Positions 2,348 through 61,918 of a stretch of DNA of 61,918 nucleotides are shown here, piece after piece. The stretch comes from a virus (taxonomy: Duplodnaviria; Caudoviricetes): positions 1 through 61,918 of the IMG/VR virus record IMGVR_UViG_3300037852_000239, one strand, 5' to 3'. Each line of letters starts with the position of its first letter. Positions within the stretch are counted from its first letter, which is position 1. The notes below the pieces were generated by a model that was not told the origin of the DNA, made no database searches, and saw nothing but the letters and a program-made list of their open reading frames with translations. Both the position numbers and the translations under genes were made by a program.

Positions 2348-4168
2348 ATGGCCATTATTCGACGACGCACGCAGACGTTGCCTTCGCAGACAGCTCTGAC
2401 GCCCACTACTGACGCGGTCGTGTCGGGGTTGCCGCCGCAGCCTCCGAACCTCGGCGTGGTCGCCGCGCAACCGCGGGCGATCACCGCCATCGTCAACCAA
2501 GCGAACGCGTGCTTGGGATTAGTAGGGTTGACCGGCGCCGGCAAGACTTCGCTCGCGGTCACCGCCGTGGTCGAAGCCTGGGAAGTCTATGGCAAGGTCA
2601 CCCATTGGTACGCCAGCGACCTCGGTGGCTGGGGTAACCAGTTGTTGTCGCTGATCCGGCTGGGGATCTGCCACGTGTGGTACATCCGCAACCACCATAA
2701 CCCGTTCACGACCATGGAATTGGCGAGTCAAGGGTGCTGGCCGGAAACCATGCAGGACCGGGAGACGGGGTTGGCGGCGCCGGATGTGCGGTTGATCCCG
2801 CCCCGGCAGACCCGGTGGACGGTGATCTGCCCCAATGACCACGCGGTGGCGAGCTATGGGGACGTGGCGCAGGCCACGGCGATGCAGCTGGCCTGTCCAA
2901 CTTGTGGCGTGATCACCACGGCCGGGAACGCGCTGCGCATGGACCGCACGATTGTGCGATCAGCTGGGTTTAGGAACGTCGGCCACTACGTGTTCGACTC
3001 GATGACCCAGATGAGCGAGTACGGGCTGACCGAGCTCCGCAACAAGAGCGCACGTGGCGAACTCCCGGCGGGGCACTCGGGCGGATCCGCGTTGGGGTCA
3101 GCGGACGCCCTCCGCGAGGTGGGTGGCAGCGTGTTTGGCACCGGGTCATTGGCTCAATATGGCTTCATGCAGGATAGAGTGCCGGTGTGGATCGGCAACA
3201 TGCGCGCGATCCCCGATCAAGTCCTCCCGCCAATTGTCACCTTCGGCATAGAGTACAGCAAGGGCAGCGACGAATCCGGCGGGATGCCCATGTATGGGCC
3301 GAAGATCGCTGGGAATAAGCGCACGCCACAGGTGCCCGGGTGGCTGGGGAATTGTTTGTACGCTGCGAAGGAGCCGCATAACCCCCCAGACACGGATGAC
3401 CAGGGGAATGTGAAGAGCTACCACCGGTTGTGGTTGGTGAACCATCCGCTGGCGGGGGATGCGGAGAACACCCCGATTGTCGCCAAGCATCGCGGGGAGC
3501 CGCTGGGGATGCCCGATTACCTGGAAGACTCTGGGAAGCCCGAAGAGGCGTGGCAGCGGTGTTCGCTGCGGGAGTTCTACCGGTTGTTGCGGGTGCAGGC
3601 GGAGGTGATTGAGGCAAGGGACCGGGCGAAGTATGCAAATGCGCCTGCCCTCGCGGGCGACCCTGAGGATGAGGAGGAGGTGCTGGAGGTCACTCGCGCG
3701 GATGTTGGAGGTGCCACACAGGGAGGCGCGGTCGGGGGTGGGGCCTCGAGCAGCCGGGTGATTCGGCGGCGGCGGAGTCCTGGGGCGGGTCCGGCGTTGC
3801 CTTCGCAGGTGGCCCCGGTATTCGAGAACAATGTCATCCAGGACAACGCAGGAAATGGGTCGATCTCGCGACTCACACCAGAGGCCTTGACCGGGAGTGG
3901 GCTGGTGCAGAACGCCGCGGGCGAGTGGGTGCAGCCTCCAACCTCCTCGTCAGTGGTCGAACAACAACTGAAGGCCAGCTTGGCCGAGCGGCAGCAGACC
4001 TTGGCGAGCCCCGAGGAAACGGCCGCGGCGTTGACGGCGTTTGACACCAAGGACGCATCGACGGGTGGCAACGGGCACGCCCAAGAGGCCACGGTGGACG
4101 CGAGCGCGCCGCCGATGGCGAGGCCGGTGAGTCGGATTCGGCGGGTGCCGCGGCCACCGGCGGAGTAA
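2348..4168 (+). CDS. AAA_24/Sak4-like P-loop ATPase (ssDNA annealing/recombination) with zinc-ribbon insert and long disordered C-terminus
   Basis: Walker A GLTGAGKT, Walker B-like YVFDSMT, CPNDH...CPTCG insert, GPKIAG motif; lies between a nuclease and an SSB candidate. Confidence 0.7.
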   Translation: MAIIRRRTQTLPSQTALTPTTDAVVSGLPPQPPNLGVVAAQPRAITAIVNQANACLGLVGLTGAGKTSLAVTAVVEAWEVYGKVTHWYASDLGGWGNQLLSLIRLGICHVWYIRNHHNPFTTMELASQGCWPETMQDRETGLAAPDVRLIPPRQTRWTVICPNDHAVASYGDVAQATAMQLACPTCGVITTAGNALRMDRTIVRSAGFRNVGHYVFDSMTQMSEYGLTELRNKSARGELPAGHSGGSALGSADALREVGGSVFGTGSLAQYGFMQDRVPVWIGNMRAIPDQVLPPIVTFGIEYSKGSDESGGMPMYGPKIAGNKRTPQVPGWLGNCLYAAKEPHNPPDTDDQGNVKSYHRLWLVNHPLAGDAENTPIVAKHRGEPLGMPDYLEDSGKPEEAWQRCSLREFYRLLRVQAEVIEARDRAKYANAPALAGDPEDEEEVLEVTRADVGGATQGGAVGGGASSSRVIRRRRSPGAGPALPSQVAPVFENNVIQDNAGNGSISRLTPEALTGSGLVQNAAGEWVQPPTSSSVVEQQLKASLAERQQTLASPEETAAALTAFDTKDASTGGNGHAQEATVDASAPPMARPVSRIRRVPRPPAE

Positions 4169-9624: not shown

Positions 9625-10189
9625 ATGCGCGTGCTGGTCGCCTGTGAGTTCTCCGGAGTGGTGCGGGAGGCGTTCCGTGCAAGGGGGCATGATGCGTGGT
9701 CGTGCGATCTGCTGCCCTCGGAGATCCCCAGCGGTCGGCATTTCGAGATGCACGTTGAGCGGCTGCTGGAAGGCGACGACGATTGGGATCTCCTGATCGC
9801 ACATCCTCCATGTACGTATCTGGCTGTAAGCGGTGCCCGGTGGTTAAAGTCTCGGCGTCACGAGCAGATACATGCACTGGAGTTCGTGCGTACCTTGCTC
9901 ACTGCGGGAGTTCCCCGCATCGCGTTGGAGAACCCGGTCGGTGTTATCAGCACGATGGTGCGCAAGCCCGACCAGATCATCCAGCCGTGGCAGTTCGGCC
10001 ACGGCGAAACCAAGGCCACGGTGCCTCTGGCTGAAGGGACTGCCCAAGCTTCAGCCGACGAATGTGGTACCAGGCCGGCAGGGACGTGTGCATCACGAGC
10101 CTCCACATCCGGATCGCTGGAAGCGCCGGAGCCGCACGTATCAAGGCATCGCCGACGCGATGGCCGAGCAATGGGGGAGGGGCCTCTGA
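9625..10189 (+). pseudogene. phage DNA cytosine methylase-like gene with a +1 frameshift at ~10021
   Basis: MRVLVACEFSG...WSCDL...IAHPPCTYL...ALENP...HGETKAT, then CLWLKGLP...RSRTYQGIADAMAEQWG in the next frame (one extra G); the shifted stop overlaps the next ATG (TGATG). Confidence 0.8.
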
Positions 10190-10528
10190 TGGATCCGCGT
10201 CGCGGCACGTTGTGGCAGCGCTTCTGGCCCAAGGTCCAGCTCGCGCCGAACGGCTGTTGGATCTGGCAGGGCGCGAGAGGCCGCCGCTCAGCGCAAGGGG
10301 CTAGATGGGCGGCTGCGCAAAGGCGGCCGGGGCGCAGGGCACGTCAGCCCGCATCGCCAGGTGCTGATCTGGGCGTGCGGCCCTCCACCCACCCCCGACC
10401 ACCAAGCGTGTCACCAATGCCCCAACCCCACCGAACACTCGACCTTGTGCGTCAATCCCTACCATTTGTACTGGGGGACACAGGTGGAGAATGAAGCGGA
10501 TAAGCGAAGCGCTCGCGCGCAGCCCTGA
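10189..10528 (+). pseudogene. HNH endonuclease with a +1 frameshift at ~10275-10295
   Basis: RFWPKV...GCWIWQGA, then in the +1 frame HRQVL...ACHQC...LCVNPYHLYWGTQVENEAD*, an HNH/His-Cys motif. Confidence 0.75.
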
Positions 10529-19290: not shown

Positions 19291-20349
19291 TCACAATCTT
19301 ATGTATGGAATTAGGTCAGTATAGTTCACATCGGTCGCGTTGGTCGCCCCAGTCTGGTAATTGATGTTCACCGCGCTTCCCGTGCCCCCACTCGACGAGT
19401 TTTCATGGATGAACTGGCCAATCAAATTCGGCGTGGTGATCCCTTGGGTGCCCCCCGCGGCCGTCGAGCTCGTCGCCGCGCCCCCATTGCACTGCGCCCA
19501 CGCGGCACTGGGGCCGGCCGTGAAGTTACAGATCATCCCCCGCATGGGTTGTCCCGGGGAATCGCCCCACGCAGAGCCGTTCCAGGTGTACTCCCGATCG
19601 AAGTCCGTCGCCGCGTAGGTGAACCCGGCGTCATTCACCCCCAAGGTGGGCTTCCCCGACAACACGCCGACCATCGGTCCGCCGCAGCCTTTGATCAACA
19701 CCCACGCGCCGATGCCGTAGTCCAACTCCCACGCCTGATCGCCTTGGTCAGTGGCTACCCAGATCACCCCGGCATCGCAGGCCGTGAACGCCACCGGGCG
19801 GTTGGCGATCGGGCCGTATTGCGTGCCTTGGTGCCAGTGCCACACCGCCCCCGACCACAGCCACGTGACCCCGGTGGTTTGATCAAACGCGTAGAAGGCC
19901 GCGTCGTTGCTGCCGAGATCCCCTGGGAGGGTGGCGATCCCCGACACCTCCATGGCCGGGCAACTCCCCGACAGCGTCCACACGCCAATCCCCGCCGAGT
20001 AGAGGGCGTGGCGATCGGTTTCGTAGAAGTTCGCCCCGGCGAAGGGCGCGAGGATCAACCGTTGGGCGTGCGTGCCGACGATCAACGCGTTGCCGCCCGC
20101 GCCGGGGAGGCCGGTGACCACCAAGGGCGTCCCACCTGTGGCTTGCAACGATTGAACAACCTGCTTCAACTGCGGCGTGGTGAGCTTCGGCGCCAGCGCA
20201 GGGTTGGTGACCTGGCTGTGCAGCCCAAGCACGCGCCCTTCCAGCGCGTTGCCAAACGCCGTCAACCCCGTCAACGCGTCCAGCACCTTGGTGGGCACCG
20301 TCGGAGGTGCAGCGTAGTCGGGCGTCAGCGTCGGGAGTTGAAAGGGCAT
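19291..20349 (-). CDS. tail fibre/collar-domain protein
   Basis: C-terminal GMICNF...WAQCNG...TPNLIGQF collar motif; repeated DAG.Y.ATD...W.G..W modules. Confidence 0.7.
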   Translation of the reverse strand: MPFQLPTLTPDYAAPPTVPTKVLDALTGLTAFGNALEGRVLGLHSQVTNPALAPKLTTPQLKQVVQSLQATGGTPLVVTGLPGAGGNALIVGTHAQRLILAPFAGANFYETDRHALYSAGIGVWTLSGSCPAMEVSGIATLPGDLGSNDAAFYAFDQTTGVTWLWSGAVWHWHQGTQYGPIANRPVAFTACDAGVIWVATDQGDQAWELDYGIGAWVLIKGCGGPMVGVLSGKPTLGVNDAGFTYAATDFDREYTWNGSAWGDSPGQPMRGMICNFTAGPSAAWAQCNGGAATSSTAAGGTQGITTPNLIGQFIHENSSSGGTGSAVNINYQTGATNATDVNYTDLIPYIRL

Positions 20350-40547: not shown

Positions 40548-41678
40548 CTACCCGCCGATACCGTAGAACTGCTTATGAGTGCGCGCAGCGATTCCCTCAA
40601 GGTTACACATTGCCTTCAATTGCCCAACCACCTTGGTGTTGTCCTGCGCCGGCACGAACCCCGACCACCCAAACCCGAATTCCTCGTTGTCGGTGACGCG
40701 GAACAACAAATCAAACGTGTTGAACAGGCACGCGACCTCACCCACGGTGCAGGTGACGCCGGACGCCGGCAGGTTGCTGAGCGCGGCTGCGGTGCCGCCG
40801 TTCGCCGTGGTCCCCGGCGACACGAACGTCCCGGTCAGAAATGACTGCCCGCCGGCCCGGTTGGCCTGCCCGTACTTCAGGCTGGGGAAATAATCGTCCT
40901 TCAGGCACATCGCGTTGTTAAACCGGAAGCCCATGACGCCCCAGACCGGGTCGCGCTCTTGCTGGAAGCGCTGTTGGACTTGGAGTTTTTCCTTGATGTA
41001 GGCCGCCCACGCCTTGTTGCCCGTGAACAGGTTAGGCTCCTTCTTGCCGATGGTGGCGTCCTGGTAGCCTTCCTCGTAGGTGGAGTAGCTGGCGACGCCC
41101 GCGTTGCCGAGGCCGTCTCCGCACCAGACGGGGATCGAGTTCATGGTCTGGCCGATGGCGCCGTTGCGCAGCTGCTGACCATACGAGGTGTAGACGTTGC
41201 CGTCCCAGCTGGGCGTGATGCCGTCGTTGATCAGCTCGGGCCAGCCGTTGATCGCGAGAGAGCGGGTGCCCTGTCCGGACTGGTGCATGGCAATCGCGTA
41301 GATCTCGTTGATGGAGTCCATGCCGTTTTGCATGTCGGCGTCCAGCAGGAGGACCACCGCGTTCTCGCCCTTGTTCTCGACCTGGATTTCTTCCTTGTAC
41401 TCGGGCACCGAGACGTAGCCGTATTTGGTCGTGAACTGCAACGCCGCGATGGTTTGGCGCTTGGTCGTGTTGAGCGTGGCGCCGGGGGCGTAGAAGCCGC
41501 CGATCATCGGCGCGTAGCGGAAGGGCGCCTGCATGAAGCTCCCGCCGGTGAACGGGACCAGGCAGTGATCGCGGATGTAGGCGAGGAGGGGGGCGCCGAG
41601 GAACCACTCGTCCTCGATCGAACGTGGGAACAATTCGAAGAGGGTCACGGCGTTGAGTTCGGCGATGTTCGGGTCCAA
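40548..41678 (-). CDS. major capsid protein (HK97 fold)
   Basis: 376 aa; AAGGAG + TTG start; FTGG...PFRY, INGW, GFRFNNA...D.Y; follows the scaffold. Confidence 0.8.
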   Translation of the reverse strand: MDPNIAELNAVTLFELFPRSIEDEWFLGAPLLAYIRDHCLVPFTGGSFMQAPFRYAPMIGGFYAPGATLNTTKRQTIAALQFTTKYGYVSVPEYKEEIQVENKGENAVVLLLDADMQNGMDSINEIYAIAMHQSGQGTRSLAINGWPELINDGITPSWDGNVYTSYGQQLRNGAIGQTMNSIPVWCGDGLGNAGVASYSTYEEGYQDATIGKKEPNLFTGNKAWAAYIKEKLQVQQRFQQERDPVWGVMGFRFNNAMCLKDDYFPSLKYGQANRAGGQSFLTGTFVSPGTTANGGTAAALSNLPASGVTCTVGEVACLFNTFDLLFRVTDNEEFGFGWSGFVPAQDNTKVVGQLKAMCNLEGIAARTHKQFYGIGG

Positions 41679-52171: not shown

Positions 52172-52747
52172 TCAGGCGTTCAGGGGTTGTTCGGCGACAG
52201 GCACCTCGACCACTGGCACGTGCGCGGGCACAGGCTCGGGCACGACCGTAGACGCGACCACAGGCACGGGCACCGGCGGTTCCTCGACCACGGGCTCCGG
52301 CAGCACCTCCAGCGGCGGGACCACCGTGGGCGCCGCGATGACGAACACCTTCGGCACCGGCGGATACGCCGGCACATCCCCGAGAGCGCGTGTCAACAGC
52401 TTAGCCGCCCCCATGAACAGGTTGAGCCGGATCTGCGTGGCGTCGTCTACGAGCGACAGCGGGGGTACCACCGGTGCCGGCACCGCGGCGGCCAAGGTGC
52501 CCAAGGGCACGGGGTGTTCCACCACGACCACGCTGGCTGGCGCCGCCGGAGCCGGCAACGTGTCATACCCCGCCTCGAGCGCCGTGATCTGGTCCCGCAT
52601 GGCGGCGACGAAGATGACCGCCGCTTGTTCAACCTGGTTGAGCTGGTTGGTGAGGCCGATGGTGTGGGTGCGCAGGGCGACGTGGGTGACGGGGCCGGTG
52701 GCTGGAACGGCGTAGCTCAGCGGTGCGTGGGGGTCGGTCGGTGACAT
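52172..52747 (-). CDS. Pro/Val-rich hypothetical protein, first gene of the - strand arm
   Basis: AAGGAG RBS before ATG. Confidence 0.7.
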   Translation of the reverse strand: MSPTDPHAPLSYAVPATGPVTHVALRTHTIGLTNQLNQVEQAAVIFVAAMRDQITALEAGYDTLPAPAAPASVVVVEHPVPLGTLAAAVPAPVVPPLSLVDDATQIRLNLFMGAAKLLTRALGDVPAYPPVPKVFVIAAPTVVPPLEVLPEPVVEEPPVPVPVVASTVVPEPVPAHVPVVEVPVAEQPLNA

Positions 52748-57947: not shown

Positions 57948-58004
57948 AGGGTAGGCAACCATGACGGTGACCATCACCTTCGACGGCAAACATCTGGCCG
58001 ACAT
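57948..58004 (+). repeat. 57-bp direct repeat, copy 1 (upstream region + first 15 codons)
   Basis: Identical to 60417-60473. Confidence 0.9.
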
Positions 58005-58299
58005 TCCAGACGGGTCCACGCTGGATGTCAGTCTGAGCACAGGCGCGCCTCCGCCGCCGGCGCCGCCAGCGGTACGCCCCACGCAGGCGTTCGCCACGGC
58101 CATGACGGCGGATCAGGTGCGCGTGTTAGTCAATGAGTACATCGCGGCCGGCGGCGTGGCGAACATCGACAACGGGCAGTACTGGGTGCTGGCCTGGAGC
58201 GAGTGGGGCTCGGGCGATCCGGCGTACTTCCGGACGAAGCTCGAGGCCGGGATCGCGGGGCAACCGAGCTACAACGGGATCTACACGCCGCTGGATTAA
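57961..58299 (+). CDS. hypothetical protein
   Basis: RBS upstream; GC3-rich. Confidence 0.7.
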   Translation: MTVTITFDGKHLADIPDGSTLDVSLSTGAPPPPAPPAVRPTQAFATAMTADQVRVLVNEYIAAGGVANIDNGQYWVLAWSEWGSGDPAYFRTKLEAGIAGQPSYNGIYTPLD

Positions 58300-58323
58300 C
58301 CAGGGGTATGGCGCATAACGCCC

Positions 58324-58527
58324 ATGTTGGTGCTCCCCTACTTGATCGCCCATCACCTGGTGAAATGGTGCTGCACCTGTGCCACCTATCACGCCGTGAC
58401 GCTATTTGGGCCGAATCGGAGCCAGCCCGATGGGTTGGGGATTCACTGCCGTGCGGCGCATAATCGGCTGAGTCGTGAAACCCACGCCCGCCACAAGGCC
58501 GGGCATGGGGTCCGCGGGAAAAGTTAA
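58324..58527 (+). CDS. stand-alone zinc-ribbon resembling the N-terminus of HNH/EndoVII endonucleases
   Basis: KWCCTC...F.PNRSQPDGL..HCR. Confidence 0.5.
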   Translation: MLVLPYLIAHHLVKWCCTCATYHAVTLFGPNRSQPDGLGIHCRAAHNRLSRETHARHKAGHGVRGKS

Positions 58528-58585
58528 GGCGCCATGAAGCCCGTCTGCCGTGTTACGATCAGCCGTGAGCAATTGGTTCCAGCGT

Positions 58586-58810
58586 ATGGAGGCGCTCCTC
58601 ACGGCGCTCTCCCTCAAGGTGAACACCATCATGGCCACTGAACAGAATTTGCAGGACGACATGGACGCCATCAAGGCGGGGGTGGCGGCCCTCGCCGCCG
58701 AGATCGCGGCGCTCAAGGCGGCGGGCGCAGGCGCGGTGACGCAGGCGCAGTTGGACGCGCTGGACGCCGAAGCCAAGACCATCGTCGCGGGCACCACGTC
58801 AGGCGCGTAG
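58586..58810 (+). CDS. short coiled-coil protein
   Basis: MATEQNLQDDMDAIKAGVAALAAEIAALK...TQAQLDAL. Confidence 0.65.
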   Translation: MEALLTALSLKVNTIMATEQNLQDDMDAIKAGVAALAAEIAALKAAGAGAVTQAQLDALDAEAKTIVAGTTSGA

Positions 58811-58815
58811 GCGCG

Positions 58816-59139
58816 ATGCTGACGCGATTCGGCGCGTGGCTGACCTCGCTCGGCATCTCCCGGGAGGACATGTCGCTCGTATGGACGCAGTGGATCAGCG
58901 TGGCGACCATGATTGTGACCGGCGCCCTGAACCTGACCACGGTCGGGGAGCCCTTGGGCATCCACATCTCGCCGCCCGTCATGCACTGGATCATGGTGAT
59001 CTGCACGGCGTCGCTCTGGTTCGGGGCGAAGATGGCCGCGAGCCCGCTGTTCAACAAGGACCACACGGCGGCCATCGTGGAACTCCAGACCGCGGTGAAG
59101 GCTGACCAGCAAGCCGTCAAGGAGAACCCCCCATCATGA
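58816..59139 (+). CDS. two-TM membrane protein (holin-like)
   Basis: Two hydrophobic segments; charged C-terminus. Confidence 0.6.
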   Translation: MLTRFGAWLTSLGISREDMSLVWTQWISVATMIVTGALNLTTVGEPLGIHISPPVMHWIMVICTASLWFGAKMAASPLFNKDHTAAIVELQTAVKADQQAVKENPPS

Positions 59140-59663
59140 GAGGCGAGGGACCAGGGGCAGCGGCGCTGACGACCGCGTTGCTGTGCGTGTGCATCCTGGG
59201 CAGCGCGCAGCTCGGGCACTGCCAAACGTTCGATGCGTGGCCGCAGAACAAGCAGTCCATTGCGGACTATGTGTCAACGGGCATCGTGGCCGGGACGATC
59301 GGCGCGGACGTTCTCTATGAGACACATGAGGCGCGCCAGCAGGGGTTGTCGTGGCAAGCCGGGTTTGGCTGCCCCGCACTCAAATACACCGCGGTGAACC
59401 TCGCGGCGATTGGACTGAAGTCCGCCTTTCCTCGAGAGCGCCCCAACCACCTGAACAATCAGGATAGCTTCAGCGAGCACACCGCCAACGTGACGGTGAC
59501 CGCTGGGCCGTGGTGGGTGGACTTGGTCATGGGCGTGGTCGTGGGTTACTTCCGTGGCGCAGCGAACATGCACGATCTCGAAGGGGTGCTGGAAGGCTTC
59601 GGCCTTGGGCTCGCGACACGCGGCGGGGTCAGGCTGATTCCCGCGTGCCGGAGCCTGTCATGA
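59136..59663 (+). CDS. PAP2-family phosphatase-like membrane/secreted protein
   Basis: Signal-like N-terminus; K-x6-RP (KSAFPRERP), SEH for SGH, R-x5-H (RGAANMH). Confidence 0.65.
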   Translation: MRGEGPGAAALTTALLCVCILGSAQLGHCQTFDAWPQNKQSIADYVSTGIVAGTIGADVLYETHEARQQGLSWQAGFGCPALKYTAVNLAAIGLKSAFPRERPNHLNNQDSFSEHTANVTVTAGPWWVDLVMGVVVGYFRGAANMHDLEGVLEGFGLGLATRGGVRLIPACRSLS

Positions 59664-59730
59664 CGAGGCGTCTGACACGTGCGCACGCGGCGCTAGACAC
59701 GGCGGCGACGATCACTGGGGCCTAGTCACG

Positions 59731-59922
59731 ATGGACCCGCTCGCCGTGATCATGGCCGCGATTCAGTTGGCCTCGGCGTCGCTGGCCTTTGAGACGAAGG
59801 TCTGGGACGCGATGCCGCCTCCGGTCCAAGCCACCGCAGCCGTCGATGTGGCCACGTTCAATCACAACATCGCGACGTTCTTGATTGGGATCCAAACCAA
59901 GCTGAAGATCCCGGTGGCGTGA
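59731..59922 (+). CDS. hypothetical hydrophobic protein
   Basis: MDPLAVIMAAIQLA...; GC3-rich. Confidence 0.55.
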   Translation: MDPLAVIMAAIQLASASLAFETKVWDAMPPPVQATAAVDVATFNHNIATFLIGIQTKLKIPVA

Positions 59923-60116
59923 TGGCGGATGAACCACCCGCAAGCCGGGAGAGTAACTGGCACGCCGCTGGCCGCGCAGCGGTTCCAGCCGTGCCCGTCT
60001 CGGTACTGCGGGCACTCGCGCGTGATCTGAAAGCACGCTGCTGGGAGCCAGCGAACGTAGACGCGCTCGCGGATCATCTCGCCGTCCTCTGTGATGCCGC
60101 GGAGTCGAAGCCGTGA
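59922..60116 (+). CDS. VPVS.LRAL...LA.LCDAAE family micro-gene 1
   Basis: Shares flanking motifs with 60476-60634 and 61131-61310. Confidence 0.65.
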   Translation: MADEPPASRESNWHAAGRAAVPAVPVSVLRALARDLKARCWEPANVDALADHLAVLCDAAESKP

Positions 60117-60367
60117 TTTTCCGCCGTCGCGGCGATCGGCACGCCTACGAGTTTCGCGCGGCGGATTGTATGGGATTGTCGTGCTGGGCTGCCGGATTGT
60201 ATCAGCATCGATCGCCGATGGCTGGCGGGGGCTCACGGAATACGGGCAGTCCCGATTCGCCGTGCTGCTTAAATCGCGCCTATCACGGGTGTCCATCGCC
60301 CCTGCCGACGTTTCAACCGGTGCTGGCGACGCAGCGCAAGACAGAAGGCTGGAAGCTGATCCGATGA
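60113..60367 (+). CDS. hypothetical Cys-rich protein
   Basis: GTGA and ATGA coupling at both ends. Confidence 0.55.
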   Translation: MIFRRRGDRHAYEFRAADCMGLSCWAAGLYQHRSPMAGGGSRNTGSPDSPCCLNRAYHGCPSPLPTFQPVLATQRKTEGWKLIR

Positions 60368-60423
60368 ATCGCGCGGACCTCGCCGCCCTCTGTGACGCCG
60401 CGGAGAAAAAGAATGAAGGGTAG
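60364..60423 (+). CDS. 19-aa remnant of the same family (MNRADLAALCDAAEKKNEG)
   Basis: Only the 3' conserved motif is present. Confidence 0.4.
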   Translation: MNRADLAALCDAAEKKNEG

Positions 60424-60473
60424 GCAACCATGACGGTGACCATCACCTTCGACGGCAAACATCTGGCCGACAT
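60417..60473 (+). repeat. 57-bp direct repeat, copy 2 (truncated gene start MTVTITFDGKHLADIIE*)
   Basis: Identical to 57948-58004. Confidence 0.9.
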
Positions 60474-60475
60474 CA

Positions 60476-60634
60476 TTGAATAAAGATAAAGAACCATGTG
60501 TGCCCGTCTCGGCGCTGCGGGCGCTCCAACGGTATCAGGTGAGCGCCCGTGGGCGTTCCTGGGCGATGCAAGATGGCGAGTGGGTGAAGTGGGAAGACCT
60601 CGCCAAACTCTGTGACCAAAGCGGAGAACCCTGA
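60476..60634 (+). CDS. VPVS.LRAL family micro-gene 2 (TTG start)
   Basis: LNKDKEPCVPVSALRALQRYQVSARGRSWAMQDGEWVKWEDLAKLCDQSGEP; missing from the ORF track. Confidence 0.55.
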   Translation: MNKDKEPCVPVSALRALQRYQVSARGRSWAMQDGEWVKWEDLAKLCDQSGEP

Positions 60635-61027
60635 ATGACTAATCTCGGTGCGCGGATCGGGGACGGCGTCGACCTCATCTCGGAGGAGCGGGTGCGTCAA
60701 CTGACGGCAGGTTGGACGCCGGCACATGATGACAGCCACGACGACGGCGCGTTGGCGGCAGCAGCGGCGTGCCTCGCCGGTGAAGAAACGGCGGCGGCGT
60801 CCTCCATCTGGCCGGACGACGATCGGTCCTGGATCTACCAGTTGCGGGCCAAGCATGCGGTCCAAGGTCCGCGCGACTCGGCCCGGTGGACGCGGACCCG
60901 CGTGCGACAACTCGTCATCGCGGGCGCATTGATCGCGGCCGAAATCGATCGGTTGGAACGGCGCGCCCGTCCACTGGCAGCCTACGACCGCGCGCAGGCG
61001 GTCGACGAGACGCACGAGGCGAAATGA
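60635..61027 (+). CDS. conserved phage hypothetical protein
   Basis: I.EER.RQ...GWT..HDD.H..G.LA.AA.C...LV.AGALIAAEIDRL motif widespread in phages. Confidence 0.8.
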   Translation: MTNLGARIGDGVDLISEERVRQLTAGWTPAHDDSHDDGALAAAAACLAGEETAAASSIWPDDDRSWIYQLRAKHAVQGPRDSARWTRTRVRQLVIAGALIAAEIDRLERRARPLAAYDRAQAVDETHEAK

Positions 61028-61130
61028 TCGTCACCTGTTTCCCTCTGTGGACGGCCATGCAGTCCATCGATCGCGACGCGAACGACGGCTGGGTGGGTGT
61101 GTGCAAGGGCCGTCTCGACAGGAACAAGCC

Positions 61131-61310
61131 ATGAGCTATGAGTGGTCGGAGTCGCAGCAAGCCTTCGTGTTACGTGAGCCCGCCGTGCCCGTCTCGGCGC
61201 TGCGGGCGCTCCTGGATGAAATGGACAAGACTGCGCCGCAATTTCCGCAACGCCTCACACCGTGGATGCGGAAACTCGCCGCCCTCTGTGACGCCGCGGA
61301 GCCGAAGTAA
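61131..61310 (+). CDS. VPVS.LRAL family micro-gene 3
   Basis: MSYEWSESQQAFVLREPAVPVSALRALLDEMDKTAPQFPQRLTPWMRKLAALCDAAEPK. Confidence 0.65.
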   Translation: MSYEWSESQQAFVLREPAVPVSALRALLDEMDKTAPQFPQRLTPWMRKLAALCDAAEPK

Positions 61311-61314
61311 GGGC

Positions 61315-61342
61315 TTGACATCGTTTGCACAACGTGCATAAT
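61315..61342 (+). promoter_or_regulatory. sigma70-like promoter with a palindrome across the spacer
   Basis: TTGACA-16 nt-CATAAT; TGCAC-AAC-GTGCA at 61326-61338. Confidence 0.7.
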
Positions 61343-61397
61343 TAGGCGGAGTCAGTCATTGCCACACGGCGTCACAAGGAAGAAGGAGGTCCGTTAC

Positions 61398-61918
61398 ATG
61401 GCCGCACCCCCCAAACCCCATTGGTCCACGCGCCTTGCGCGTCTCCACGCGTGCGCGGACGCCATCGCGTTTGCCCGTGGCTATCCGACGTTCAGGGCGG
61501 CATGGCGAGCGTGCCCGCGTAGCGATTGGTTGATCTGGTGGTTGGCACGCACGGAACCCGCAGAGAGCCAGCCGCTACGGTGCATCGCGATCCGGTGTGT
61601 GCTCGCCATTCCACGCCGGAAGCCCATTGAAGGCTGGGATGAGTGGGCACGTAACTATCTCGCTGGGAAAGCCCGTAGCAATACGACATTACGGGATGCC
61701 GCATGGGCTGCCGCGGGGGATGCCGCGGGGGCTGCCGCGGGGGATGCCGCATGGGCTGCCGTGAGGGCTGCCGCGAGGGCTGCCGCGAGGGATGCCGCAT
61801 GGGCTGCCGTGAGGGCTGCCGCGAGGGCTGCCGCATGGGCTGCCGCGGGGGATGCCGCGGGGGCTGCCGCGAGGGATGCCGCGGGGGCTGCCGCGGGGGA
61901 TGCCGCGGGGGCTGCCGC
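61398..61918 (+). CDS. 5' part of the Ala-rich tetrapeptide-repeat protein (runs off the end and joins 1-423)
   Basis: AAGGAGGT SD; [49 protein letters not shown]... then AAW/AAG repeats. Confidence 0.85.
61694..61918 (+). repeat. 12-bp tandem repeat, same unit as 1-362
   Basis: Directly visible. Confidence 0.95.

What the first reader, a model, noticed from the sequence alone, without database searches (positions are those of the whole stretch)
59922..61310. Array of micro-genes with conserved DNA flanks and unrelated centres
Seen: motif A gtgcccgtctcgg(c/t)(g/a)ctgcgggc(g/a)ctc (VPVS.LRAL) at ~59991, 60500 and 61185; motif B ctcgccg(c/t)cctctgtga(c/t)gccgcggag (LA.LCDAAE) at 60078, 60379 and 61275, with a degenerate copy at ~60599. 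Between A and B lie ~20-24 codons with no similarity to each other (ARDLKARCWEPANVDALADH / QRYQVSARGRSWAMQDGEWVKWED / LDEMDKTAPQFPQRLTPWMRK). Unrelated genes are interspersed. The layout is superficially repeat-spacer, but it is coding. Inference: a fixed helical scaffold displaying variable inserts, or short homology arms that let the phage's Sak4-like/Cas4-like recombination machinery swap accessory cassettes.
Basis: partly seen in the sequence, partly recalled or inferred. Interest (0 to 1): 0.72.

Follow-up and report, generated by a model that had tools for sequence, protein, structure and literature searches.

The report
Shuffled hairpin micro-gene family in phage
A soil phage carries several tiny genes of one unnamed protein family whose two short conserved ends are kept almost letter for letter while the parts around them are swapped between related phages, which looks like gene shuffling guided by short in-frame homology.

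Summary
Motif A occurs 3 times and motif B 3 times plus one degenerate copy, at the stated places, with 0 expected by chance. The copies lie in four small genes of one uncharacterised family: 56 representatives among 1.84 billion proteins, with no Pfam or PHROG match. AlphaFold2 predicts a helical hairpin in which motif A starts helix 1 and motif B ends helix 2. The two motifs would therefore form the conserved base and the "unrelated centre" the variable tip.

Across relatives the modules are combined freely. Of 19 protein pairs with similar N-modules, 0 share a centre. All 6 pairs with similar centres have unrelated N-modules, and similarity breaks at motif A.

Motif DNA is conserved beyond what the protein needs. 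Codons differ in 0 of 16 motif positions against 10 of 16 flanking ones (p=2.5e-4). Otherwise unrelated contigs share 38 identical bases. The 3' end of motif B carries a GGAG placed as ribosome-binding site for the overlapping next gene.

Best reading: a recombining accessory-gene family whose coding motifs double as homology arms. No recombinant reads were seen, because only contigs were available. The protein function is unknown.

The parts
59922..60116 (+). P1, a 64-aa family member with N-module, motif A, centre and motif B. Its ATG overlaps the stop of the upstream 63-aa gene (TGATG).
   Evidence: ORF list; profile match E 1.3e-18; sequence read
59991..60017 (+). Motif A copy 1 (VPVSVLRAL). 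It has 3 base differences from the other two copies.
60078..60104 (+). Motif B copy 1 (LAVLCDAAE). Its GGAG at 60101-60104 lies 8 nt before the GTG at 60113.
   Evidence: sequence
60113..60367 (+). 84-aa ORF coupled to P1 (GTGA overlap). It has no homologue, and its coding status is uncertain. An alternative 110-aa ORF (60091-60423) runs in the frame of the next motif B.
   Evidence: no PHROG match; GC3 does not decide between the frames; no match to family N-modules
60364..60423 (+). P4, a member or remnant with motif B only (MNRADLAALCDAAEKKNEG). Read as a 19-aa micro-ORF its ATG overlaps the stop of the 84-aa ORF (ATGA). Otherwise it is the C-terminus of the 110-aa ORF.
   Evidence: profile match to the C-terminal part only, E 8.6e-6; the tail is 14 of 14 identical to P0010
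60379..60405 (+). Motif B copy 2, identical over 27 nt to copy 4 at 61275.
60417..60473 (+). 57-nt low-GC linker between P4 and P2, including most of a 17-aa ORF (60430-60483). In run X2 it is a separate contig of higher depth, with other sequence attached on both sides.
   Evidence: record 12; loose ends at 60417, 60428, 60473
60476..60634 (+). P2, a 52-aa family member with TTG start and almost no N-module. Its motif B is degenerate (LAKLCDQSGEP), but GGAG is kept at 60623-60626, 8 nt before the ATG of the next gene.
   Evidence: (E 1.7e-16); P0010 shares the same MNKDKEPC head
60500..60526 (+). Motif A copy 2
60599..60625 (+). Degenerate motif B
   Evidence: (D4)
60635..61027 (+). Interspersed unrelated 130-aa gene. 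It matches the C-terminal domain of nine PHROG families of unknown function.
   Evidence: best E 3.5e-14
61024..61134 (+). Interspersed 36-aa ORF, coupled on both sides by ATGA overlaps.
   Evidence: sequence; not searched in the right frame (see Tried and rejected)
61131..61310 (+). P3, a 59-aa family member and the last gene of the unit.
   Evidence: E 1.1e-20; fold
61185..61211 (+). Motif A copy 3. With its flanks (61179-61216) it is 38 of 38 nt identical to L018.
61275..61301 (+). Motif B copy 4
61315..61342 (+). Sigma-70-like promoter (TTGACA, 16 nt, CATAAT; 11 of 12) directly after P3. It marks the end of the array's transcription unit.

Best explanation
The region is a cluster of four paralogous accessory genes (three complete, one with motif B only). 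They belong to an undescribed family of small phage proteins of about 50-170 aa.

Each complete member has four parts: a free N-terminal module, helix 1 opening with (E)PAVPVSALRAL (motif A), a variable stretch of about 12-50 residues, and helix 2 closing with LAALCD(A/Q)AE-x-(K)P (motif B) at the very C-terminus.

In the predicted antiparallel hairpin the two motifs lie side by side and form the conserved base, while the 'unrelated centre' is the variable tip. That the motifs touch is inferred from the topology.

The same two motifs, 27-38 identical bases each, serve as crossover points for homologous recombination between paralogues and between co-occurring phages. N-modules, centres and tails are therefore reassorted in frame. 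The discordant module similarity is shown; the crossover itself is inferred. Repeated exchange keeps the motif DNA near-identical between phages that are otherwise diverged beyond DNA recognition.

The last codons of motif B (GCG GAG) also supply a GGAG ribosome-binding site 5-9 nt before the start codon of the next gene, which usually overlaps the stop (ATGA or GTGA). This is read from the sequence; its function is inferred.

The protein's cellular role is not known. My guess is a host-interaction or counter-defence protein whose variable tip sets specificity. That guess rests only on small size, an early or accessory position and hypervariability.
For: 1. One family. A profile of 4 members finds 56 representatives at E<=1e-3 among 1.84 billion. 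A profile of 48 finds 65 proteins at 90% clustering, nearly all singletons (62 of 65 with one member sequence, 3 with two), none with a Pfam domain. In the 48-row alignment V, R, L and C are invariant, and V, P, A, L, L, L, D and E are at least 90% conserved.

2. Fold. AF2 on that alignment gives pLDDT 75.8 (80-88 over the domain), with helices at 22-35 and 40-57.

3. Shuffling. Of 85 proteins in hand, 80 were parsed and 3003 pairs scored.
- 19 pairs have N-modules at least 60% identical. Of these, 0 have centres at least 60% identical and 18 have centres below 35%.
- 6 pairs have centres at least 60% identical, and all 6 have N-modules below 35%.
- P0051 and P0069 share an identical N-module, and P0062's is 94% identical to it; the three have different centres.
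- P0006 and P0032 have the same N-module but different centres.
- P0006 and P0031 have the same centre but different N-modules.
- P0007/L020 combines the N-module of P3 with the centre of P1.
- P0010 combines the head of P2 with the tail of P4.

4. Motif DNA. All 8 motif-A copies from 5 contigs are near-identical, and 4 of the 5 variable sites are third codon positions.
- P3 against L020A: codons differ at 0 of 16 identical-residue motif positions against 10 of 16 elsewhere (Fisher p=2.5e-4).
- P1 against L020A: 1 of 14 against 11 of 15 (p=4.8e-4).
- From the window's codon usage, nine identical codons for VPVSALRAL have a chance of about 8e-5 per pair (my product of the figures).
- G001 (35 kb) shares no other blastn match with the window: all 4 HSPs lie in this gene.
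- L018 shares 38 of 38 nt with the window.

5. Arrays elsewhere.
- L018 has three consecutive coupled members (3178-3847).
- L020 has two, and a third ORF that runs off the contig end after 'GDELA', the opening codons of motif B.

6. GGAG is present in 9 of 10 motif-B copies. A start codon follows 5-9 nt later in 6 of those 9.

7. In two soil runs, other contigs join or leave the window's sequence exactly at 61211 (end of A), 61275 (start of B) and 61307.
Against: - No recombination event was observed directly. Laying two runs gave no joints, and those runs are held as contigs, which drop rare variants.
- DNA was available for only 5 contigs. The codon test rests on two comparisons that share one partner (L020A).
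- The third comparison, L019 against the window, is only a trend: 4 of 20 against 16 of 34, p=0.079.
- The protein sets are cluster representatives (50% and 90%). This removes some concordant pairs and so inflates the share of discordant ones.
- No recombinase was identified in the window by the models tried.
- Members with motif B only show that the two motifs need not act together.
- Metagenome assemblies could in principle be chimeric at shared motifs. This is unlikely for a 27-38 nt repeat.
- The protein function is a guess.
Confidence: 0.65

Rival explanations
1. The nucleotide conservation reflects a DNA- or RNA-level signal embedded in the coding sequence, such as a hairpin in the mRNA, a binding site for a phage or host factor, or a recombination hotspot sequence. 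Shuffling would then be a by-product.
For: - Synonymous sites in the motifs are strongly conserved.
- Non-preferred codons are fixed. In motif B, TGT (37% of Cys codons in the window) and the CTC before it (35% of Leu codons) occur in 10 of 10 copies. In motif A, CGG (27% of Arg codons) occurs in 8 of 8 copies.
- Motif A can form a 7-bp stem (98.2% of cells paired), or alternatively a 10-bp stem (88.8%). Slid controls give 30-70%.
- For the 3' end of motif B an RNA-level role is likely (GGAG as Shine-Dalgarno). In P2 the GGAG is kept although the residues changed.
Against: - There is no change on both sides in any stem pair, so there is no covariation evidence. One copy (L019) breaks a pair.
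- Whole-gene folds are not better than shuffles, with z from -0.39 to -1.05.
- There is no Rfam match.
- Where the motif varies, it varies mostly at third positions (4 of 5 sites in A). In the wider family it shows conservative residue changes (S/A, L/I, D/E), as expected for protein-level selection.
Confidence: 0.12
2. These are ordinary diverged paralogues. Strong purifying selection acts on the two helix ends, and relaxed or diversifying selection acts on the tip and N-terminus. Recombination at the motifs plays no special role.
For: The motifs are the structurally constrained part of a hairpin. The family is old and diverse. The three window copies each have their own closest relatives elsewhere.
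Against: - Divergence alone cannot give pairs that are 100% identical in one module and unalignable in the next, in both directions.
- It also cannot give zero synonymous change in the motifs beside 60-70% codon change in adjoining homologous modules.
Confidence: 0.12
3. A dedicated cassette or diversification system acts on the motifs: integron-like site-specific recombination, a diversity-generating retroelement, or a RiPP-type precursor with conserved recognition flanks and a hypervariable core.
For: The layout of conserved flanks with a hypervariable core resembles, on recall only, cyanobactin precursor cassettes and attC-bounded cassettes. Motif B has a conserved Cys.
Against: - No reverse transcriptase is present in the window.
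- The centres differ in length and in all residues, not at adenines only.
- Motifs A and B are not inverted repeats of each other.
- None of the ORFs scanned next to the array gave a significant family match apart from the interspersed 130-aa gene, which matches PHROG families of unknown function; no integrase or modifying enzyme was found among them.
- N-terminal 'leaders' are the most variable part.
- The domain folds confidently as a hairpin.
Confidence: 0.05

Closest known systems
PeSLs (promoter-early stem-loops) of T4-type phages (Arbiol et al. 2010, PMC2839356; Comeau et al. 2014, PMC4122927; abstracts read)
   Same: Short conserved sequences are repeated among small non-essential genes in a plastic genome region. 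They serve as points of homologous exchange between otherwise unrelated sequences and carry an expression signal as well.
   Different: PeSLs are intergenic promoter-terminator cassettes. Here the repeats are in-frame coding segments of one protein family, so exchange reassorts parts of proteins rather than whole genes. Only the tail of motif B carries an expression signal (GGAG). Mini-circles and recombinants are demonstrated for PeSLs and not here.
Mosaicism by relaxed homologous recombination in temperate phages (De Paepe et al. 2014, PMC3945230; Sak/Sak4, PMC5499656; search listings and abstract openings only)
   Same: Exchange occurs between diverged phages at short stretches of similarity, giving abrupt transitions from near-identity to no similarity.
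   Different: Those studies tie the process to Rad52-like or Sak4 recombinases. No such gene was identified in this window by the models tried. The junctions here are recurrent and lie inside a gene family.
Generic helical-hairpin proteins (for example ATP synthase c subunit, the top Foldseek rows)
   Same: Two antiparallel helices of about 15-18 residues.
   Different: No significant structural match: the best E is 2.6 and there are 0 rows at E<=0.001. There is no sequence relation. The resemblance is of fold class only.

Membership tests
PeSL-type mobile regulatory cassettes | Intergenic position | tested here: not met
   Motifs A and B lie inside ORFs and are read in one frame in all copies.
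PeSL-type mobile regulatory cassettes | Sigma-70 promoter plus stem-loop terminator within the repeat | tested here: not met
   The only promoter-like site in 58000-61918 is at 61315-61342, outside the motifs. No + strand terminator-like site was found.
PeSL-type mobile regulatory cassettes | Replacements and indels between relatives bounded by the repeats | tested here: met
   Module similarity is discordant, with breaks at motif A. Contigs diverge at 61211, 61275 and 61307.
Diversity-generating retroelement | Reverse transcriptase and a template/variable repeat pair differing at adenines | tested here: not met
   There is no RVT_1 match in the window, and the control genomes do give matches. 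The centres differ in length and are unalignable.
Integron-type cassettes (attC) | Imperfect inverted repeats bounding each cassette, and a linked integrase | tested here: not met
   No A/B inverted pair appears among the 21 inverted repeats found. No integrase was found among the ORFs scanned.
CRISPR-like repeat-spacer array | Non-coding, regularly spaced identical repeats | tested here: not met
   Spacings are 509 and 685 nt for motif A and 301 and 896 nt for motif B. The motifs are coding. There is no Rfam match.
Any curated protein family (Pfam, PHROGs) | Significant profile match | tested here: not met
   - The window copies gave 0 Pfam families at E<=1 and no PHROG better than E 0.06.
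- Of the 48 members scanned, 1 has a weak TerY_C hit (E 0.0038) in its N-module.
- There are no precomputed Pfam domains on any of 65 relatives.
The new family itself (hairpin with VPVSALRAL ... LAALCDAAE) | Both motifs in order, with motif B within about 10 residues of the C-terminus | tested here: met
   P1, P2 (degenerate B) and P3 are met; P4 is met for B only.

The most novel reading that the evidence does not exclude
The two motifs are dual-purpose 'in-frame linkers'. They are kept at the nucleotide level because they let a community of soil phages assemble micro-proteins combinatorially, as head x tip x tail, by homologous recombination. This would be a prokaryotic-virus analogue of exon shuffling, with the hairpin base guaranteeing that every recombinant still folds and motif B guaranteeing that the next gene is still translated.
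Probability: 0.25. Interest if true: 0.8.

Novelty: new variant of a known kind. Interest (0 to 1): 0.6.

Why it matters
Small phage genes of unknown function are the bulk of viral 'dark matter', and how they diversify is poorly understood. Here a whole family appears to diversify by reassorting protein parts at two short coding motifs that stay near-identical in DNA between otherwise unrelated phages.

If confirmed, this extends the PeSL idea (short conserved sequences as exchange points) from intergenic regulatory cassettes to in-frame protein segments. It would also give a concrete, testable example of how homology of only about 30 bases can structure gene flow in soil viromes.

The family also offers a natural minimal scaffold, a hairpin with a fixed base and a free tip. 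It belongs to phages that appear, on distant capsid similarity only (27.7% identity), to be related to the few isolated Acidobacteriota phages.

Tried and rejected
- **RNA structure.** Folding the four A-to-B stretches gave z from -0.39 to -1.05. Rfam gave 0 matches. Two hairpin models for motif A showed no change on both sides, so they are uninformative rather than negative.
- **Homodimer prediction of P3**. The verdict was 'no answer' (median score 0.37, mark 0.42). It is not used as evidence either way.
- **Fold search against PDB.** There were 0 rows at E<=0.001.
- **ESM Atlas.** The best scores were 0.81, below the level at which hits mean anything.
- **Read-level recombinants.** Only two runs hold the stretch, both as contigs. 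No joints were listed. This cannot show absence.
- **More DNA of relatives.**
  - IMG/VR degenerate-motif scans gave 6 and 4 loci. Only L007 carries both motifs in an ORF. I judged the others to be chance from their translations.
  - Profile scans confirmed 1 of 60 (viral), 3 of 127 (metagenome) and 1 of 30 (genome) pattern matches. Unconfirmed stretches may include true short members.
  - Scans with P0030 and P0008 found nothing.
  - No match to P0023 was found in GenBank phages.
- **Host range.** In 401 genomes of the order of G002, 30 had a 'match' at E<=0.01. Only G002 is convincing (1.6e-16). The other 29 (E from 1.7e-4 to 9.8e-3, partial, mostly inside long ORFs) I treat as noise without inspecting each.
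- **P4 frame.** GC3 did not decide between the 84-aa and 110-aa ORFs. Neither has relatives among the family proteins.
- **Recombinase hunt.** AAA_24 was sub-threshold and PDDEXK_1 gave none. Pfam and PHROG scans of 20 further ORFs found a helicase, a polymerase, a methyltransferase-HNH and AAA_25, but no SSAP. Other recombinase families were not searched.
- **36-aa ORF.** It was sent to PHROGs in the wrong frame, so nothing can be said about it.
- **Neighbours of the arrays in L018 and L020.** There are no Pfam matches, and only PHROGs of unknown function.
Full report
**Setting.** The window is a complete IMG/VR virus record of 61,918 bases, estimated 94% complete and linear, with about 64% G+C. 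It encodes a Dda-like helicase, a family-A DNA polymerase, a major head protein, a large terminase and tail proteins. Its head protein has only two relatives in GenBank phages, Tunturiibacter phages Tunturi_1 and Tunturi_2, at 27.7% identity over the full length. These infect Acidobacteriota (abstract listing of PMC11924767). One relative of the finding lies on a 1.6-kb contig binned into a Vicinamibacterales MAG. The host is therefore probably an acidobacterium, but this is weakly supported.

**The observation.**
- Motif A occurs at 59991, 60500 and 61185. Motif B occurs at 60078, 60379 and 61275. None is expected by chance.
- A degenerate B lies at about 60599.
- The centres are 20, 24 and 21 codons long and do not align.
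- The family profile finds exactly four places in the window.
- Genes are tightly coupled, with TGATG, GTGA and ATGA overlaps at 59922, 60113, 60364, 61024 and 61131 (sequence).
- A near-consensus promoter follows P3 at 61315-61342.

**What the genes are.**
- A profile of the three window copies and one relative finds 56 cluster representatives at E<=1e-3 among 1.84 billion.
- A 48-row profile finds 65 proteins in the 90%-clustered collection. Nearly all are singletons (62 of 65 with one member sequence, 3 with two), and all that carry a name but one are named 'hypothetical protein'. None has a Pfam domain.
- Pfam, PHROGs and the ESM Atlas give nothing.
- The shared part is always C-terminal: (E)PAVPVSALRAL, then 12-50 variable residues, then LAALCD(A/Q)AE-x-(K)P and the stop.
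- AlphaFold2 on the alignment predicts two helices, 22-35 and 40-57, with pLDDT 80-88 there. Motif A is the first half of helix 1 and motif B the second half of helix 2. In an antiparallel hairpin these halves face each other. This is my inference from the topology, since no contacts were given.
- Some members are hardly more than the hairpin (P2, P0010, P0075). Others carry zinc-ribbon-like or other N-modules.
- A few small genes in the same arrays end in motif B without a recognisable motif A. These are L018 3450-3617, L020 1102-1335 and the window's P4.

**Shuffling.** I split 80 of the 85 proteins in hand into N-module, motif A, centre, motif B and tail. Five were left out: P0041 and P0045 (repeat proteins), P0057 (identical to P3), and P0081 and P0082 (no motif B by my pattern).
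- Among 3003 scored pairs, 19 have N-modules at least 60% identical. None of these has a similar centre, and 18 are below 35%.
- 6 pairs have centres at least 60% identical, and all of these have N-modules below 35%.
- In N-sharing pairs similarity ends just after ALRAL. In centre-sharing pairs it begins just before (A)VPV (sequences). The break therefore falls inside motif A.
- The window takes part. P0007 (= L020 916-1092) has P3's N-module and P1's centre. P0010 has P2's head and P4's tail (14 of 14 residues).
- Clustering of the source collections removes some concordant pairs. The existence of 25 sharply discordant pairs does not depend on that.
- Several members share the same longest-contig length: three at 19,958, three at 52,229, and pairs at eight other lengths. 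This suggests that 2-3 members per phage is usual. It is an inference, confirmed only for L018 and L020.

**Nucleotide conservation.**
- Eight motif-A copies from five contigs differ at 5 of 27 positions in all, 4 of them third codon positions. In ten motif-B copies CTC-GCC and CTC-TGT are invariant.
- Between P3 and L020A, codons for identical residues differ at 0 of 16 motif positions and 10 of 16 other positions (p=2.5e-4).
- Between P1 and L020A the figures are 1 of 14 and 11 of 15 (p=4.8e-4).
- Between the window and L019, a neighbouring gene is 42.5% identical in protein with 16 of 34 codons differing. The motifs differ at 4 of 20 (p=0.079).
- G001 and L018 have essentially no other DNA similarity to the window (L018 shares one further 60-nt patch), yet they share 28-38 identical bases at motif A.
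- Codon bias cannot explain this. The chance is about 8e-5 per pair for nine codons, and minor codons (TGT, CGG) are fixed.
- I read this as homogenisation through repeated exchange. A direct nucleotide-level function is not excluded. Hairpin models for motif A are compatible with the data but show no covariation.

**A second layer in motif B.** GGAG, from the Ala-Glu codons GCG GAG, is present in 9 of 10 copies. In 6 of those 9 a start codon follows after 5-9 nt, usually overlapping the stop as ATGA or GTGA. In P2 the residues have changed (QSGEP) but GGAG remains in place, 8 nt before the ATG at 60635. This part of the motif therefore most likely serves as ribosome-binding site for translational coupling.

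**Reads.** Two soil runs from two studies hold the stretch, one possibly the source sample, and both are held as contigs. They confirm the arrangement and show no joints. Other contigs attach or depart exactly at 61211, 61275 and 61307, and around the 57-nt linker at 60417-60473. This shows co-occurring relatives that share just the motifs. It does not show recombination in progress.

**Rejected alternatives.**
- A retroelement: no reverse transcriptase.
- attC-like or CRISPR-like elements.
- A RiPP-like precursor: the neighbours scanned gave no match to any family of known function, the 'leaders' are variable and the fold is confident.

**Comparison with known systems.** The closest known mechanism is PeSL-mediated modular shuffling in T4-type phages (abstracts). 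The present case fails the PeSL membership tests for intergenic position and for promoter plus terminator, but it works alike as a recurrent short exchange point. It is best called a new variant: in-frame, protein-coding exchange points within a new small-protein family.

**Verdict.** The evolutionary mechanism is moderately well supported, and the biochemical function is open.

Noticed in passing
window 61315-61918: After a near-consensus promoter comes a gene (ATG at 61398, open to the contig end). Its 3' part from about 61645 is a 12-nt periodic repeat with 13 overlapping copies, encoding AAxDAAWAA-type units. Summed contig depth rises from about 18 to 147 (X1) towards the end, so the repeat is shared with, or collapsed from, much other DNA. 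The contig probably ends here because of the repeat.
   Followed up: no
window 60635-61027: The 130-aa gene between P2 and P3 matches the C-terminal domain of nine PHROG families of very different lengths (186-685 aa), all of unknown function (best E 3.5e-14). This looks like a promiscuous phage domain.
   Followed up: no
window 60417-60473: A low-GC 57-nt linker, which includes a 17-aa ORF, appears in run X2 as its own contig at about twice the depth of its flanks, with different sequence attached on both sides. It may be a further shared exchange point.
   Followed up: partly
window 59686-59708: A 23-nt stretch upstream of the 63-aa gene is 78% complementary to motif B copies at 60380-60402 and 61276-61298 (inverted repeats I3 and I4). 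This may be chance in G+C-rich DNA.
   Followed up: no
window 58717-58776 and L018 102-158: An isolated patch of 85% nucleotide identity over 60 nt lies in the coiled-coil gene 58550-58810 (…TQAQLDALDAEAK…). The two contigs are otherwise dissimilar at DNA level.
   Followed up: no
window 9625-10494: This ORF combines a DNA methyltransferase part (PHROG 757, E 7.8e-46) with an HNH endonuclease part.
   Followed up: no
proteins P0045 and P0041: Two odd profile hits. P0045 is a 550-aa repeat protein in which 'YRELAALCETAEEKKAVWREYIAKNP'-like units recur (6 matched stretches). P0041 is a 169-aa protein with three tandem 'PCVPKLALRVLLPDQ' units. Both were left out of the analysis, and their relation to the family is unclear.
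   Followed up: no
window 40548-41678: The major head protein's only relatives among 50,697 GenBank phage records are the two Tunturiibacter (Acidobacteriota) phages, at 27.7% identity.
   Followed up: partly
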